From Thermodesulfovibrionales bacterium (GTDB taxonomy: Bacteria > Nitrospirota > Thermodesulfovibrionia > Thermodesulfovibrionales > SM23-35), in contig DASPRG010000169.1 of assembly GCA_035624555.1 (NCBI GenBank), positions 1 through 26,285 of the forward strand: a DNA stretch of 26,285 bases. Direction: 5' to 3'. Under the pieces are notes generated by a model, which made no database searches, was not told the origin of the DNA, and was given only the letters and a program-made list of their open reading frames with translations. Every line of letters begins with the position of its first letter. Position 1 is the stretch's first letter. Positions 1 to 15,581 of the stretch are shown here, piece by piece. The position numbers were made by a program, and so were the translations under genes.

Positions 1-6
1 GGGGGG

Positions 7-34
7 GAGGAGCCCCCGGGGGAGGGGGCCCCTC
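7..34 (-). terminator. GC-rich stem-loop 12 nt downstream of the ftsZ stop (possible terminator or REP-like stabilising hairpin)
   Basis: The mRNA strand reads GAGGGGCCCCC-UCCCCC-GGGGGCUCCUC, an 11-bp stem with one G.U pair. It is followed by a C-run rather than a U-tract, and the window edge cuts off what comes next. Confidence 0.5.
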
Positions 35-46
35 GGTGGAGGGATC

Positions 47-10439: not shown

Positions 10440-11535
10440 TTGTATTTTTTTCTAGGACTCTGTAATCTTTCCCCTTTTTAGTCTTTGCAAGTGTTTTTGT
10501 CTTACTCCTTTTCTTTGCAATGGAATTTGTTCCACTTTTTTTCTTTGTCAGTTTTGTCTTTGCTTTCAGCTTTGAACTTTTAACCTGAACCTTTGAATTT
10601 TTCTTATAGGTTGCCTTTCTCACATTGTAAACATCGTAATCTGCTTTTGTGAAATAGATAACAGGTTCTTCTTTGTTGACCATAATGTTAAACCCCTTAT
10701 CAATAAGGGTCTCTGTCTCTTTCCAGAGGTTCACCCTGCTCGGGCTCCCGAGAAGGGCAACAATTACTGTATCCTTTTCACGCTCAGCTGCACATACAAA
10801 ACAGTGCCTTGCCGCGCGTGTATATCCTGTTTTTCCTCCTATAAGGTCTTCATCAGACCATAATAGTTTGTTTGTGTTCTTGAGAAATAAGCCGTTTCCC
10901 TTTTCTGTCGAGACCTCTGCCACACGAGTTCCGATTATTTCTTTCAGTTTTGGGTATCTCAAGGCATACCGCATCATGAGCGACAAATCAAAGGCAGTTG
11001 TATACTGGTCTTGGCCAGGGAGGCCATGAGGATTTATGAATTTAGTATCCCTTAGCCCAATAGCTTCTGCCTTTCTGTTCATGAGGTAGACAAAGTTCTC
11101 CTCAGAACCAGCTACAGCTTCTGCGAGAGCAACAGCAGCATCATTTGCAGACTTCAGGAGTGCGGCATAGAGAAGTGTCTCAATGGTTACCTCATCCCCC
11201 TCTTTGAACCCTGCCTTTGAAGGAGAAACCAGAGAGGGATTTTTGCTTATCCTTACAATATCCGAAAGATTTTTCTCTTCTATGGCTACAATTGCTGTCA
11301 TCAGCTTTGTTGTACTTGCCGGAGGAAGCCTGAGATTCGGATTCTTTGCATAAAGGATCCTTTCTGTTGATGCCTCCATCACGACTGCTGCCCGGGAATT
11401 AAAATCATCAGCATGTACGACGGTGGGAAGTGAAAACTGAAAAGTGAAAAGGATAAAGACTAAAATGAAAGATAATTTTTTCTGCTTGACAACTGACGAC
11501 TGAAGACTGACGACTAACGACTGTTTCATGATCAC
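10423..11535 (-). CDS. Serine-type D-alanyl-D-alanine carboxypeptidase/endopeptidase (peptidase S11, low-molecular-weight PBP) with Lys-rich tail
   Basis: SxxK (PASTTK), SxN (KSAN), KTG (GKTGYT), NPHGL, signal-peptide-like N-terminus ending VHA|DD. Start is GTG 11535 or ATG 11529. Confidence 0.93.
   Translation of the reverse strand: MIMKQSLVVSLQSSVVKQKKLSFILVFILFTFQFSLPTVVHADDFNSRAAVVMEASTERILYAKNPNLRLPPASTTKLMTAIVAIEEKNLSDIVRISKNPSLVSPSKAGFKEGDEVTIETLLYAALLKSANDAAVALAEAVAGSEENFVYLMNRKAEAIGLRDTKFINPHGLPGQDQYTTAFDLSLMMRYALRYPKLKEIIGTRVAEVSTEKGNGLFLKNTNKLLWSDEDLIGGKTGYTRAARHCFVCAAEREKDTVIVALLGSPSRVNLWKETETLIDKGFNIMVNKEEPVIYFTKADYDVYNVRKATYKKNSKVQVKSSKLKAKTKLTKKKSGTNSIAKKRSKTKTLAKTKKGKDYRVLEKNTNGNTG
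10563..10597. repeat. Heptamer array in the S11 peptidase C-terminal tail
   Basis: CTTTCAG CTTTGAA CTTTTAA CCTGAAC CTTTGAA. Confidence 0.7.
11430..11457. repeat. Heptamer array in the S11 peptidase signal peptide (hydrophobic part)
   Basis: GTGAAAA CTGAAAA GTGAAAA GGATAAA. Confidence 0.75.
11485..11523. repeat. Heptamer array in the S11 peptidase N-terminus
   Basis: CTTGACA ACTGACG ACTGAAG ACTGACG ACTAACG ACTG, encoding QSLVVSLQSSVVK. Confidence 0.85.
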
Positions 11536-12615: not shown

Positions 12616-13980
12616 TTATTCTGTCTCCAGAACCCGTTCCATACGCATACCCCTCGACCCCTTTATCAGAAGGGTATCTCCTTCTTTACAGATACCCCTA
12701 ATCATTTCCCGAGCATCGAGAGAATTCCGAAATGTATAAAACTTTCGTGTGAATTCGGATGCTGCAGAAGACATCAAGGGTCCTATCGCCACAAAGATGT
12801 CAATCGGCAGTTCTGACATCCAACTCACGAGTTTTCTATGGGCATCATATTCATAAGAGCCGAGTTCCAGCATATCTCCCAAAACAGCAATAGCCCTTTT
12901 CTTCTTGAGCCTGACAAGTTCTTTTATGGCCTCCTCCATAGAAGCCGGGTTTGCGTTATATACATCACTGATAATTTGAAGGCCCTTGAGTTCTTTAATC
13001 TCGAATCTCATCGGGATGCTACTAAAAGAATCTATCACATTCTTTATATCCCTCAGTTCAATATGAAAGAGATGACCAATAGAGGCAGCTGCGAGGAGAT
13101 TATAAATATTAAATTTCCCTGATATTTTCGGATTGACTTCTACAGATTTGTTCTTGCCGATGTGTAAGAGAAAGGTAGAACCCTTTTCATGAAGCCTGAT
13201 ATTCGTCGCATAGATTTCGGCGTCATTGTCTATCCCGTATCTGACTATTCTCCCTTTGAACCCTGAGTTTTGAATACCTTCTATCAAGAAGGAATCATCA
13301 GCGTTCACAACAGCCACACGAATATAATTCAAAATTTCAAGTTTTGTCCTCCTCAGGGTCTCCATATCCTTAAAACCCTCGAGGTGGGATGGACTGATAT
13401 TTGTTATAACACCATAATCTGGCATTGCTATTTCGCATAACTCCTTTATATCGCCCGGTATACTTGCACCCATTTCTAAAACAGCAGCCTCATCCTTTTC
13501 ATTTATCCCTGTTAAAGTCAGGGGAAGTCCGATGTGATTATTCAGATTACCTGTATTTTTCAGTACCCTGTATGTAGAGCTCAGGATCGATGCTATGAGT
13601 TCTTTTGTGGTTGTCTTGCCATTCGATCCTGTGATGCCAATGACAGGAATGGCTCTTTTCAGGCGCATATAATGAGCCATCCCCTGAAGGGCCTTGAGTG
13701 TGTCCTCCACAGTGATGATGGTTTTCCCCTCTATCAGTTCCGCAGGAGGAAATGTTACAAGAGCGCCGCTTCCTACCTGTAATGCCTCTTGAAGAAAATC
13801 GTGCCCGTCAAATCTCTTGCCTTTGAGGGCAATGAATAACTCGCCTTCTTGTATCAATCTTGAATCTATTGACACACCAGTGAAGGTATGAGCATTTTCA
13901 CAGATAACTTTCCCCCCTGTTGCTGCAATGATATCTTCGATTTTCAAAACCCCTTTAATCTCATTTCCGAGCATCCACAA
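12616..13980 (-). CDS. murF: UDP-N-acetylmuramoyl-tripeptide--D-alanyl-D-alanine ligase
   Basis: SIDSR, ITGSNGKTTTKE, NLNNHIGLP, VLEMG, DVYNANPASM, GDMLELG, KGSRGM. Exact start uncertain (TTG 13980 or ATG 13974). Confidence 0.98.
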   Translation of the reverse strand: MWMLGNEIKGVLKIEDIIAATGGKVICENAHTFTGVSIDSRLIQEGELFIALKGKRFDGHDFLQEALQVGSGALVTFPPAELIEGKTIITVEDTLKALQGMAHYMRLKRAIPVIGITGSNGKTTTKELIASILSSTYRVLKNTGNLNNHIGLPLTLTGINEKDEAAVLEMGASIPGDIKELCEIAMPDYGVITNISPSHLEGFKDMETLRRTKLEILNYIRVAVVNADDSFLIEGIQNSGFKGRIVRYGIDNDAEIYATNIRLHEKGSTFLLHIGKNKSVEVNPKISGKFNIYNLLAAASIGHLFHIELRDIKNVIDSFSSIPMRFEIKELKGLQIISDVYNANPASMEEAIKELVRLKKKRAIAVLGDMLELGSYEYDAHRKLVSWMSELPIDIFVAIGPLMSSAASEFTRKFYTFRNSLDAREMIRGICKEGDTLLIKGSRGMRMERVLETE

Positions 13981-15581
13981 TGCTCATTCACTCCCTGAAT
14001 TCGCAATTTGTCTTTAATCGCCTCCTCAAGAATTTCTCTATCATTCAATCGATACCGCTTGCCTTTGATTTCTTGGTAATCCTCATGACCCTTGCCTGCA
14101 ATAAGGACGATATCTCTATCACATGCTAAATCTACTGCCTTTCTGATTGCTTCTCTTCTGTCGGGTTCTTTCATGTAGTTTCTTCTTACAGCGCCATCTT
14201 CGATCTCCCTGATGATATCGGATGGTTCTTCTGACCGAGGATTATCAGAAGTCAGAATAACAATGTCACTCAGCTTTGTTGCTACAGCACCCATCTTTGG
14301 TCTCTTACCACGGTCTCTGTCTCCCCCGCATCCAAAGACGGTAATTATACGTGGCACTTTCTTTAGTTCATAGTTAGTGAACTGGTCATTGGTCATTGGA
14401 CATTGGTCATTTGTCACTGGTACCAATGTCTGATGACTATTGACGGATGACTTTTTTATGATATCCCTTGCTGTACATATCAGCCTATCAAGAGCATCAT
14501 CTGTATGGGCATAGTCAATAAGGCAAAGGAAGTTTTGACCAAGGTCAATTTTTTCGAACCTCCCTGTAACACCATCAGTCTTTCTTATGCCTTCAAGGAT
14601 TATCTGCCACGGGACTCCCAGGGAGATTGATACGCCAGCTGCAGACATGATGTTGTATACATTAGGCAGACCTATCAAAGGGGATGCGACATCGTAACTC
14701 CTGCCGCGGAAAGATATCTTAAATCTCAGTCCCTCAGAGGATGGATTCATTTCCCTCGCGACGATATCTGCTGCATCCTCAAGCCCGTATGTCAGTATCC
14801 TGCTCGGTTCTGAGTCTTGTCCGCCTGAGGCAGATCCAAACTCTGAGGCTAACCTCTTCCCATAGGAGTCATCCAGATTTATTACAGAGGTTCCATTCTT
14901 GTCGAGGAGCTCCCTGAATAATCTCTCTTTTGACCGGAAATAACTTTCCATCGTTTTATGAAAATCCAGATGGTCTCTCGTGAGATTGGTGAAAACAGCA
15001 ACCTTGAAAACAGCCTCATCCACCCTGTGCTGTTCAAGGGCATGGGAGGATACCTCTGAAATAACATGGGTGCAACCGGAAGAGAGCATATCTTTTAACA
15101 GACCATGGAACTCTAAAGATTCAGGTGTTGTGAAAGGTGCAGGATAGATCCTGTCTTTTACCATGTAGTGTATCGTGCCAATCAGGCCAACGTCCTTTCC
15201 CCAGGATTCGAGTATGGACTTGAGGATATACGTTGTTGTTGTCTTCCCGTTTGTACCTGTTATACCGATGAGGAAAAGATTTTCTGATGGCATTCCGTAA
15301 AAATTATGTGCAATGCAAGCAAGGGCTTTTCTGCTATCTTTGACGCGGATGTAAGCAATCTTTGCGTCTCTCAAGTCTCTCTCCCCCATTACTGCGATCG
15401 CTCCTTTCTTGATTGCTTCTGTGATAAAATCATGTCCATCATACCTTTCACCCTTTATCGCTACAAACAGATAGCCCTCTTTTACCTTCCGTGAATCATA
15501 AGCCACACCCTTTACATCTCTATCCAGTGACAGAGAGTTGTTTACAAAATCACAGCCTTGAAGAAGTTCTTTCAAGATCAT
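13944..15581 (-). CDS. murE: UDP-N-acetylmuramoyl-L-alanyl-D-glutamate--2,6-diaminopimelate ligase
   Basis: YDSR, TGTNGKTTT, TTPES, EVSSHAL, TNLTRDHLDFH, DYAHT, VFGCGGDRD, DNPR (meso-DAP specificity motif), GKGHEDYQ. Confidence 0.99.
   Translation of the reverse strand: MILKELLQGCDFVNNSLSLDRDVKGVAYDSRKVKEGYLFVAIKGERYDGHDFITEAIKKGAIAVMGERDLRDAKIAYIRVKDSRKALACIAHNFYGMPSENLFLIGITGTNGKTTTTYILKSILESWGKDVGLIGTIHYMVKDRIYPAPFTTPESLEFHGLLKDMLSSGCTHVISEVSSHALEQHRVDEAVFKVAVFTNLTRDHLDFHKTMESYFRSKERLFRELLDKNGTSVINLDDSYGKRLASEFGSASGGQDSEPSRILTYGLEDAADIVAREMNPSSEGLRFKISFRGRSYDVASPLIGLPNVYNIMSAAGVSISLGVPWQIILEGIRKTDGVTGRFEKIDLGQNFLCLIDYAHTDDALDRLICTARDIIKKSSVNSHQTLVPVTNDQCPMTNDQFTNYELKKVPRIITVFGCGGDRDRGKRPKMGAVATKLSDIVILTSDNPRSEEPSDIIREIEDGAVRRNYMKEPDRREAIRKAVDLACDRDIVLIAGKGHEDYQEIKGKRYRLNDREILEEAIKDKLRIQGVNEHCGCSEMRLKGF
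14382..14451. repeat. Ten-unit heptamer array forming an imperfect inverted repeat inside murE (STRR2-like)
   Basis: CTGGTCA TTGGTCA TTGGACA TTGGTCA TTTGTCA CTGGTAC CAATGTC TGATGAC TATTGAC GGATGAC, centred on GGTACC at 14419-14424. Confidence 0.9.
14820..14834. repeat. GC-rich mini-hairpin inside a murE loop
   Basis: The mRNA strand reads UCUGCC-UCA-GGCGGA, a 6-bp stem with one G.U pair, inside the apparent insertion GSASGGQDSE. Confidence 0.35.

What the first reader, a model, noticed from the sequence alone, without database searches (positions are those of the whole stretch)
14382..14451. A 60-nt palindrome made of head-to-head heptamer arrays, translated as a roughly 30-aa insert in MurE
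Seen: ten in-register units. The left arm is TT(G/T)GTCA-type and the right arm is of opposite sense (..TGAC). Folding about GGTACC (14419-14424), 21 of 30 positions over 14392-14451 are Watson-Crick complementary by my hand count. It encodes SSVNSHQTLVPVTNDQCPMTNDQ between TARD and RIITVFGCGG, next to the DAP-binding DNPR region. Known: translated palindromic inserts exist (Rickettsia palindromic elements), but as far as I know they are not built from heptamer tandem units. Inference: the intact unit of this system may be a hairpin of two opposed arrays (fold-back synthesis or a cruciform substrate), and the single arrays elsewhere may be its remnants.
Basis: partly seen in the sequence, partly recalled or inferred. 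Interest (0 to 1): 0.75.

Follow-up and report, generated by a model that had tools for sequence, protein, structure and literature searches.

The report
Translated heptamer-repeat hairpin inside MurE
A 70-base hairpin-forming repeat made of two opposed runs of 7-base units sits in frame in a floppy loop of the cell-wall enzyme MurE; it is one copy of a repeat class that riddles housekeeping genes of this Nitrospirota lineage, real and fast-changing but of a kind whose parts are already described elsewhere.

Summary
Window 14383-14452 is ten 7-nt units in one register: five good TGGTCAT units, a centre unit holding GGTACC, and four degenerate units of the opposite sense. The arms are 72% complementary about GGTACC and 83% in a shifted register. 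It is read in frame as residues 377-400 of a 35-residue insert (376-410) in an otherwise intact MurE.

The pairing is not chance. About 1% of juxtapositions with other arrays from this genome fold as well. 34 of 83 heptamer arrays genome-wide have an opposed partner, against 9% in a permutation null. The same element, in the same frame, sits in two other genes of this genome. Contigs from three studies carry the insert without length change.

AlphaFold2 models the insert as a disordered loop. Every relative in the family has some heptamer array or GC-rich palindrome at this MurE site, but the content differs even between sister species.

Best reading: tolerated selfish hairpin-repeat DNA that changes by slippage and by copying between loci. 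Inverted heptamer-array pairs are published for Xanthomonas, and translated palindromic repeats for Rickettsia. Earlier notes of this scan report the same class in at least eight windows, of other Nitrospirota and one CPR genome. It is a new variant of a known kind.

The parts
13944..15581 (-). murE (UDP-MurNAc-tripeptide synthetase), 545 aa, intact, in a dcw cluster (ftsI upstream, murF and mraY downstream)
   Evidence: ORF list; Pfam Mur_ligase, Mur_ligase_M and Mur_ligase_C; PDB MurE hits down to E 1e-99; catalytic motifs invariant in the alignment
14352..14456 (-). Whole insert, residues 376-410, absent from insert-free MurE. It splits the Pfam Mur_ligase_C model between profile positions 34 and 35.
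   Evidence: HMMER alignments to PDB MurE jump from query 375 to 411; alignments of relatives; AF2 gives pLDDT below 50 and coil for 380-407, between helix 361-380 and strand 412-419
14383..14417 (-). Strong arm: five units, TGGTCAT on the + strand and TGACCAA in gene sense. The third unit is changed (TGA to TGT) where the consensus would give an in-frame stop.
   Evidence: TRF; codon listing; the same substitution logic (TGG) in the two other copies
14418..14424 (.). Centre unit TGGTACC holding the GGTACC symmetry centre; it is the loop of the hairpin
14425..14452 (-). Weak arm: four degenerate units of opposite sense (TCAxxAG type in gene sense, encoding SSVNSHQ). It holds the dispersed 15-mer GTCAATAGTCATCAG at 14430-14444.
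   Evidence: 15-mer hits in 34 of 57 family genomes
14352..14382 (-). Rest of the insert (FTNYELKKVP). It may be a decayed remnant of the GAACTCY array that occupies this side in relatives; the similarity is weak.
   Evidence: Comparison with MurE of G003, G009, G008, G012 and G018; by eye only

Best explanation
The MurE palindrome is a resident copy of a lineage-wide class of small hairpin-forming repeats built from opposed tandem heptamer arrays. These are long simple-sequence repeats of the STRR type, arranged as inverted pairs. It is most likely selfish or neutral DNA. It survives in an essential gene because it lies in a disordered surface loop of the C-terminal domain and has been purged of in-frame stops.

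Shown: it is translated in frame. It belongs to a dispersed family. The site is a hot spot whose content turns over quickly.

Inferred: unit number changes by replication slippage, and in genes only net changes in multiples of 3 survive. Unit type and the second arm change by copying between array loci, through template switching, gene conversion or an unknown mobilising activity that uses the arrays as homology. The peptide itself has no role. My confidence that it is a tolerated member of this repeat class is about 0.85. My confidence in the slippage plus inter-locus copying mechanism is about 0.55.
For: Period 7 dominates tandem repeats in the genome: 63 arrays at TRF score 40 or more, against 1, 16 and 10 for periods 6, 8 and 9, and 28 against at most 4 in a stricter scan.

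Adjacent arrays are reverse complements in 13 of 19 cases, against 15% expected (p 3e-7). 34 of 83 arrays have an opposed partner within 90 nt, against 8.7% in the null.

The same element sits in the same reading frame in the UDG gene (C15) and a CoA-enzyme-activase gene (C50). The order of variant units is shared, and every third unit is altered to avoid TGA or TAG.

Other hairpin inserts lie at domain junctions or ends of CarA, Alr, PurL, QueC and dihydroorotase.

The insert is a disordered loop in the AF2 model.

Slippage signature: QueC orthologues keep the same units but have 5+5, 5+4, 2+4 and 1+1 copies, with lengths 126, 105 and 84 nt, in steps of 21.

Inter-locus copying: the 15-mer from the weak arm occurs up to about 20 times per genome in 34 of 57 family genomes, against 0-2 for the reversed control. 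About 12 of 30 sampled copies carry the opposed TGACxAA arm. The CarA site holds 4+4-unit pairs with four different unit types in four congeners.

Turnover: on the MurE tree, G000 (long insert) is sister to G001 (short), and G003 (long) is sister to G005 (short), with supports of 99/93 or better.
Against: No empty or filled site with clean ends or a target-site duplication was found, so copying between loci is inferred from similarity only. No length polymorphism was seen in contigs from three studies, although contigs hide rare variants. The persistence of some insert at the same MurE site in all 17 family members examined, and the conserved 4+4 architecture at CarA, could instead point to a selected function. 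The excess of period 7 itself remains unexplained.
Confidence: 0.6

Rival explanations
1. The hairpin is a true non-autonomous mobile element (MITE/REPIN-like). A trans-acting enzyme that recognises hairpins, for example a Y1 HUH transposase of the RAYT or IS200 type, moves it as a unit and prefers existing arrays or hairpin loops as targets.
For: Multi-copy, near-identical arm sequences occur within and between genomes. Elements nest: a 39-nt GC-rich palindrome lies between arrays in MurE of G003, G018, G009, G008 and G012 and in the G000 dihydroorotase gene, and 5 of 15 GC palindromes abut heptamer arrays against 1.4% expected. Long and short states are homoplastic between sister species. 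Y1_Tnp genes are present in 52 of 57 family genomes, one of them in G000.
Against: No defined termini or target duplications were seen. Dozens of different unit families would each need recognition. Y1 gene counts do not track element counts: G007 has 22 Y1 genes and 0 copies of the 15-mer, G015 has 2 and 20. The single Y1 gene of G000 is flanked by a different palindrome, GGGACAACCCCC. No gene-carrying cassette lies between distant opposed arrays in G000.
Confidence: 0.25
2. The hairpin is a selected cis-acting structure, for example an mRNA stem that sets transcript stability or processing or pauses ribosomes, or an array of protein-binding sites. The translated loop is then a by-product.
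For: Some insert is kept at the same MurE, CarA, Alr, UDG and QueC positions across species while its sequence is replaced. CarA keeps a 4+4-unit architecture with four different units. Several inserts sit at domain boundaries. The sense RNA folds well (z -4.4).
Against: Close relatives do without the second arm (G001, G004, G005 MurE) or hold an unrelated GC palindrome at the site. The arms are poorly complementary in some orthologues: CarA of G001 and G005 fold at only about -14.5 kcal/mol. QueC of G005 has shrunk to 1+1 units. No consistent strand bias of stem stability relative to gene direction was found. Location at loops and junctions is what a tolerance filter alone predicts.
Confidence: 0.1
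3. The palindrome is a chance juxtaposition of two unrelated arrays, or an assembly chimera.
For: The weak arm is degenerate (19/28) and TRF does not call it. The locus-level permutation score is only modest: 16/21, reached by 3.9% of the null.
Against: The same left and right pairing recurs at two other loci in G000 and at many loci in relatives. The array-preserving folding null gives about 1%. Three independent assemblies carry it.
Confidence: 0.03

Closest known systems
Inverted pairs of heptamer tandem repeats in Xanthomonas (GGGAATC; Rehm et al. 2015, PMC4692102)
   Same: Tandem 7-nt arrays often occur as two convergent arrays on opposite strands with stem-loop or cruciform potential. 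Between species the type (single or inverted pair) is kept while the length varies. This matches the behaviour seen here.
   Different: In Xanthomonas there is one G-rich unit family, mostly intergenic, discussed as G-quadruplex formers. Here there are dozens of AT-rich unit families, about half of the arrays lie inside long ORFs, and the unit type is replaced at orthologous sites.
Cyanobacterial STRR heptamers and other long simple-sequence repeats (Mazel 1990 and Mrazek 2007 from my own knowledge and as cited in PMC4679880 and PMC4692102; Nostoc GAC(C/T)AAT x8 upstream of recO, bioRxiv 10.1101/2022.06.06.494920)
   Same: Short tandem arrays of 7-nt units, several unit families per genome, and an excess of period 7. 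The MurE strong-arm unit TGACCAA/TTGGTCA is a rotation of the Nostoc unit GACCAAT and, from memory, equals STRR2.
   Different: The cyanobacterial repeats are described as intergenic or regulatory. Pairing into hairpins and in-frame translation in essential enzymes are not part of that description. The shared unit may be coincidence.
TAACTGA direct repeats of marine Beggiatoaceae (MacGregor 2015, PMC4679880)
   Same: Heptamer arrays of 2-6 units. Ten sets are interior to ORFs and read through as 7-residue periodic peptides.
   Different: There is a single unit type, overwhelmingly upstream of start codons, and only one inverted set in the genome.
Rickettsia palindromic elements (Ogata 2000, 2002, as summarised in PMC10969869)
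   Same: Dispersed palindromic repeats inserted in frame into unrelated housekeeping genes and translated, at positions compatible with the fold.
   Different: RPEs are about 150 bp with family-specific consensus sequences and are not built from tandem units. No sequence relation was tested. The elements here are 60-110 nt, have an internal 7-nt period and change copy number.
REP/REPIN elements with RAYT transposases (Bertels and Rainey 2011, PMC3116915)
   Same: Hairpin-forming doublets as the replicating unit. A Y1 gene flanked by its own palindrome exists in this genome.
   Different: REPINs are extragenic, each family is tied to one RAYT, and the arms are unique 20-30-mers rather than tandem arrays. 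The palindrome flanking the Y1 gene here is unrelated to the heptamer arrays.

Membership tests
Heptanucleotide long SSR / STRR-type tandem repeats | Head-to-tail copies of a 7-nt unit, three or more copies | tested here: met
   TRF period 7, 5.6 copies, 84% matches at 14383-14421
Heptanucleotide long SSR / STRR-type tandem repeats | Many loci per genome with an excess of period 7 over neighbouring periods | tested here: met
   63 arrays against 1, 16 and 10 for periods 6, 8 and 9 at score 40 or more; 28 against at most 4 in a stricter scan; also in relatives G015, G024 and G007
Heptanucleotide long SSR / STRR-type tandem repeats | Copy-number change between related genomes (slippage) | tested here: met
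   QueC orthologues with 5+5, 5+4, 2+4 and 1+1 units. Not seen at the MurE locus itself within the species.
Inverted heptamer-array pairs (Xanthomonas type) | Two arrays of complementary units in convergent orientation close together, more often than chance | tested here: met
   13/19 adjacent pairs (p 3e-7); 41% against 8.7%; the MurE pair is 72-83% complementary
Rickettsia palindromic elements | Dispersed palindromic repeat inserted in frame in unrelated protein genes | tested here: met
   Same element in MurE, UDG and CoA-activase genes in one frame
Rickettsia palindromic elements | About 100-150 bp element with an RPE family consensus, in Rickettsia | tested here: not met
   70-nt element made of 7-nt units in a Thermodesulfovibrionales MAG. 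It works like an RPE but is not a member.
MITE | Terminal inverted repeats plus target-site duplication, with filled and empty sites | tested here: inconclusive
   The whole element is an inverted repeat, but no empty site with clean ends or a duplication was found among 17 MurE orthologues or at the UDG, Alr, CarA and QueC sites
REPIN/RAYT system | The cognate Y1 (RAYT) gene is flanked by the same repeat, and copy number is tied to that gene | tested here: not met
   The G000 Y1 gene (C56:10372-11070) is flanked by a GGGACAACCCCC palindrome, not by heptamer arrays. Y1 counts and element counts do not correlate.
MurE (Mur ligase family) | Three Mur ligase domains with the P-loop GTNGKT and the DNPR motif | tested here: met
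   Pfam; invariant columns G109-T115 and D446-R449; AF2 mean pLDDT 83, pTM 0.84

The most novel reading that the evidence does not exclude
Opposed heptamer arrays may be the replicating unit of an undescribed kind of tiny mobile DNA. Such an element would home to existing arrays or hairpin loops by homology- or structure-guided copying, not by classical cut-or-copy transposition. It would overwrite the resident repeat at fixed landing pads inside housekeeping genes across Thermodesulfovibrionales. Together with a 39-nt GC-rich palindrome that nests in it, it would keep remodelling disordered loops of essential enzymes.
Probability: 0.25. Interest if true: 0.8.

Novelty: new variant of a known kind. 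Interest (0 to 1): 0.5.

Why it matters
A non-triplet simple-sequence repeat can live inside an essential cell-wall enzyme, and inside many other housekeeping enzymes. This happens where a loop tolerates it and where selection edits every third unit to remove stops. The same protein positions act as long-lived repeat nests whose content differs even between sister species. That offers a natural system for studying three things: how new disordered protein segments arise from repeat DNA, how hairpin repeats spread and replace one another, and how far essential enzymes tolerate insertions. For annotation, such inserts should not be read as frameshifts, inteins or assembly errors. They also break MAG assemblies: murE of G004 is split between two contigs about 40 nt upstream of its array.

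Tried and rejected
1. Strand bias of stem stability. The first eight ORF-embedded hairpins folded better as antisense (32 G.U pairs against 8), as did the CarA and QueC orthologues. A wider sample from G000, G015, G024 and G007 showed no bias (in ORFs 3 against 3, intergenic 6 against 7). I dropped this as an effect of two unit families.

2. A lead from earlier scan notes said the gene-less hairpins derive from cassettes carrying a small gene. In G000, opposed arrays 60-2500 nt apart are no commoner than direct ones (2 against 4), and none encloses a small ORF. G000 is fragmented, so this is weak.

3. Y1 transposase as mobiliser. It is present in 52 of 57 genomes but does not correlate with element counts.

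4. Expression. No RNA holder was listed among the public runs, so there is no evidence either way.

5. One X4 contig joins 14342 to 14464 with a 27-nt side. It is probably a relative with another insert and was not used.

6. Elhai et al. 2008 (small dispersed repeats nested in heptamer repeats of Nostoc) could not be read and is cited from memory only.

7. Literature searches that combined the phylum or Thermodesulfovibrio with heptamer or tandem-repeat terms found no description of this repeat class in that lineage.

8. The intein, intron and programmed-frameshift readings were rejected. The ORF is continuous, and the insert is short and repeat-built.

9. Complex prediction, the protein database searches and the structure searches were not used, because they would not bear on the question.

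Full report
**What is there.** The window is contig C154 of an 81%-complete, 1.31-Mb, 41.6% GC metagenome-assembled genome. Its nearest named relatives are Nitrospirota of the order Thermodesulfovibrionales. Public runs that hold the stretch are peat, wetland and sediment metagenomes. The finding lies in murE (13944-15581, minus strand, 545 aa) within a dcw cluster. The protein has the three Mur ligase domains, strong matches to solved MurE structures and all conserved motifs.

On the + strand, 14383-14452 reads as ten 7-nt units in one phase. There are five good TGGTCAT units (TRF 5.6 copies), then TGGTACC, then four degenerate units with an ATGAC/TTGAC core. The repeat finder reports the palindrome about GGTACC at 72% over 32-nt arms, and a shifted pairing at 83% over 23 nt.

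**The insert in the protein.** HMMER alignments to PDB MurE chains jump from query residue 375 to 411. The insert is residues 376-410 (window 14352-14456), and the palindrome encodes 377-400. It splits the Pfam Mur_ligase_C model between profile positions 34 and 35. An AlphaFold2 model built on 11 sequences (mean pLDDT 83, pTM 0.84) shows 380-407 as coil with pLDDT below 50, between helix 361-380 and strand 412-419. DNPR is at 446-449, not adjacent in sequence. MurE of a neighbouring family (G019) has four residues here.

**Is it real and more than chance?** Contigs of three studies span the insert with no gaps: X1 at 4.4 kb, X2 at 750 nt, and X4 at 250 nt and about 96% identity. The sense RNA folds at -22.2 kcal/mol against -11.3 +/- 2.5 for dinucleotide shuffles. 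I kept the tandem units and swapped one arm for pieces of the other heptamer arrays of the genome. Only about 1% of those juxtapositions fold as well.

**Genome-wide picture.**
- Period 7 dominates tandem repeats: 63 arrays at TRF score 40 or more, against 1, 16 and 10 for periods 6, 8 and 9. A stricter self-match scan gives 28 against at most 4.
- Adjacent arrays are reverse complements of each other in 13 of 19 cases (at most 2 mismatches per unit), against 15% for random array pairs (p 3e-7). Direct relatedness is not enriched.
- With a more sensitive test, 34 of 83 arrays have an opposed partner within 90 nt, against 8.7% in a permutation null. The score distribution is bimodal.
- Head-to-head arrays are therefore a real, recurrent architecture, although more than half of the arrays stand alone.
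- Samples of relatives show the same pattern: G015 at 43% against 9%, and G024, from another family of the order, at 24% against 10%. The G015 contigs were chosen from contigs with pattern hits, so its array density is biased upward.

**A dispersed, translated family.**
- 40 of 83 arrays lie inside long ORFs, against 72% for random segments.
- The MurE element recurs in the same reading frame in a uracil-DNA glycosylase gene (peptide KSLVNSHQSLLKTSDQWPMTNN) and a CoA-enzyme-activase gene (TNDQWPMTNDQ). The order of variant units in the weak arm is the same.
- A perfect TGACCAA array has TGA in all three frames within 21 nt. In all three genes the in-frame unit is changed, to TGT in MurE and TGG in the others. 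The in-frame TAG of the other arm is CAG. This is the mark of selection keeping the frame open.
- Other hairpin inserts sit between the two domains of CarA and of alanine racemase, and in PurL, QueC, dihydroorotase and others.
- The 15-mer GTCAATAGTCATCAG from the weak arm occurs, with at most one mismatch, in 34 of 57 genomes of the family. It reaches about 20 copies per genome, against 0-2 for a reversed control. About 12 of 30 sampled copies are followed by an opposed TGACxAA array. Copies are both intergenic and genic.

**The MurE site is a repeat nest.** All 17 family members examined carry a heptamer array, a GC-rich palindrome or both at this position, but the content differs.
- G003 and G015 share the weak arm with G000.
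- G003, G009, G008, G012 and G018 hold a GC-rich palindrome (translated PPxPPxxKGGxGG or similar) followed by a GAACTCY array.
- G012 has TCAGAAG x5 and G013 has AGAACAA x5.
- G001, G004 and G005 have only a four-unit array.
- On a MurE tree with the insert masked, G000 (long) is sister to G001 (short), and G003 (long) is sister to G005 (short), with supports of 99/93 or better. The state is therefore homoplastic and turnover is fast.

The same holds elsewhere. CarA carries 4+4-unit pairs with four different unit types in four congeners. QueC keeps its units but varies from 5+5 to 1+1 copies, with lengths of 126, 105 and 84 nt. Alr and UDG hold GC palindromes in other species.

**Mechanism.** The steps of 21 nt at QueC fit slipped-strand changes filtered for reading frame. 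Three observations fit copying between array loci better than a fold-back duplication of the local arm: unit types are replaced at fixed sites, arm sequences are shared between loci, and the MurE strong arm resembles other loci's strong arms more than the complement of its own weak arm.

Whether that copying is template switching, gene conversion or enzyme-driven mobility is open. Y1 transposase genes are common in the family (52 of 57 genomes), but their counts do not track the element. The one copy in G000 is flanked by another palindrome. No termini or target duplications were found.

A selected RNA or DNA structure is less likely. Close relatives lack the second arm, or hold unrelated content, or have poorly complementary arms. 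No consistent strand bias exists.

**Comparison with what is known.**
- Heptamer arrays in excess are known in many bacteria (cited in PMC4679880 and PMC4692102).
- Convergent inverted pairs of heptamer arrays are described for Xanthomonas, 70-75 per genome, with the type conserved and the length variable between species.
- ORF-internal heptamer arrays read as 7-residue repeats are noted in Beggiatoaceae.
- In-frame palindromic repeats in housekeeping genes are the hallmark of Rickettsia RPEs.
- I did not find the combination described: many unit families, hairpin pairs translated in essential enzymes, and conserved nests with replaced content in Nitrospirota.
- Earlier notes of this scan report the same class in at least eight windows, of other Nitrospirota and one CPR genome. 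This is one more instance, not a first sighting.

**Verdict.** It is a new variant of a known kind and of moderate interest.

Noticed in passing
G000 contigs C4, C6, C8, C9, C12, C34, C123, C137, C153 and others; also MurE of relatives (L083, L101, L087, L086): A well-defined 39-nt GC-rich palindrome (six C, three variable bases, six C, TTTAGTAAA, six G, three variable bases, six G) has 15 copies in G000. Five of them abut heptamer arrays, against 1.4% expected. It is translated as PPxPPxxKGGxGG inside MurE, Alr, UDG and dihydroorotase of various species.
   Followed up: partly
G000 contig C56:10372-11070 (-): A single Y1_Tnp (PF01797) gene in a 233-codon open frame is flanked on both sides by the inverted pair AAAGGGACAACCCCCATAT. 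This arrangement looks like a RAYT gene with its REP. The 12-mer core has only 6 copies in the MAG.
   Followed up: partly
window 1-43: The contig starts with a G/C-rich repeat of period 16-17 (TRF) of another type than the 39-nt palindrome. This is probably why the assembly broke here.
   Followed up: no
window 11428-11523: Two further heptamer arrays (AAGTGAA x3.4, TGACGAC x5.3) lie at the 5' end of the ORF downstream of mraY. Another first-reader note says they encode a signal peptide.
   Followed up: no
G000 C6:3925-5313 (dihydroorotase) and MurE of G012 (L100): The same three-part composite appears in two unrelated genes of two genera: a TCAGAAG array, the GC palindrome, then a GAACTCY array.
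   Followed up: partly
window 14383-14417 against Nostoc PCC 7120: The strong-arm unit TGACCAA is a rotation of the GAC(C/T)AAT heptamer repeated 8 times upstream of recO in Nostoc (bioRxiv 10.1101/2022.06.06.494920). From memory it is the same as cyanobacterial STRR2 (TTGGTCA). This may be coincidence or a shared preference.
   Followed up: no
G004 contigs C31 (end) and C351 (start); L146 (G005 Alr): murE of G004 is split between two contigs about 40 nt upstream of its four-unit array, and the Alr insert of G005 reads as a run of N. I suspect these repeats break or mask assemblies, but did not test it.
   Followed up: no
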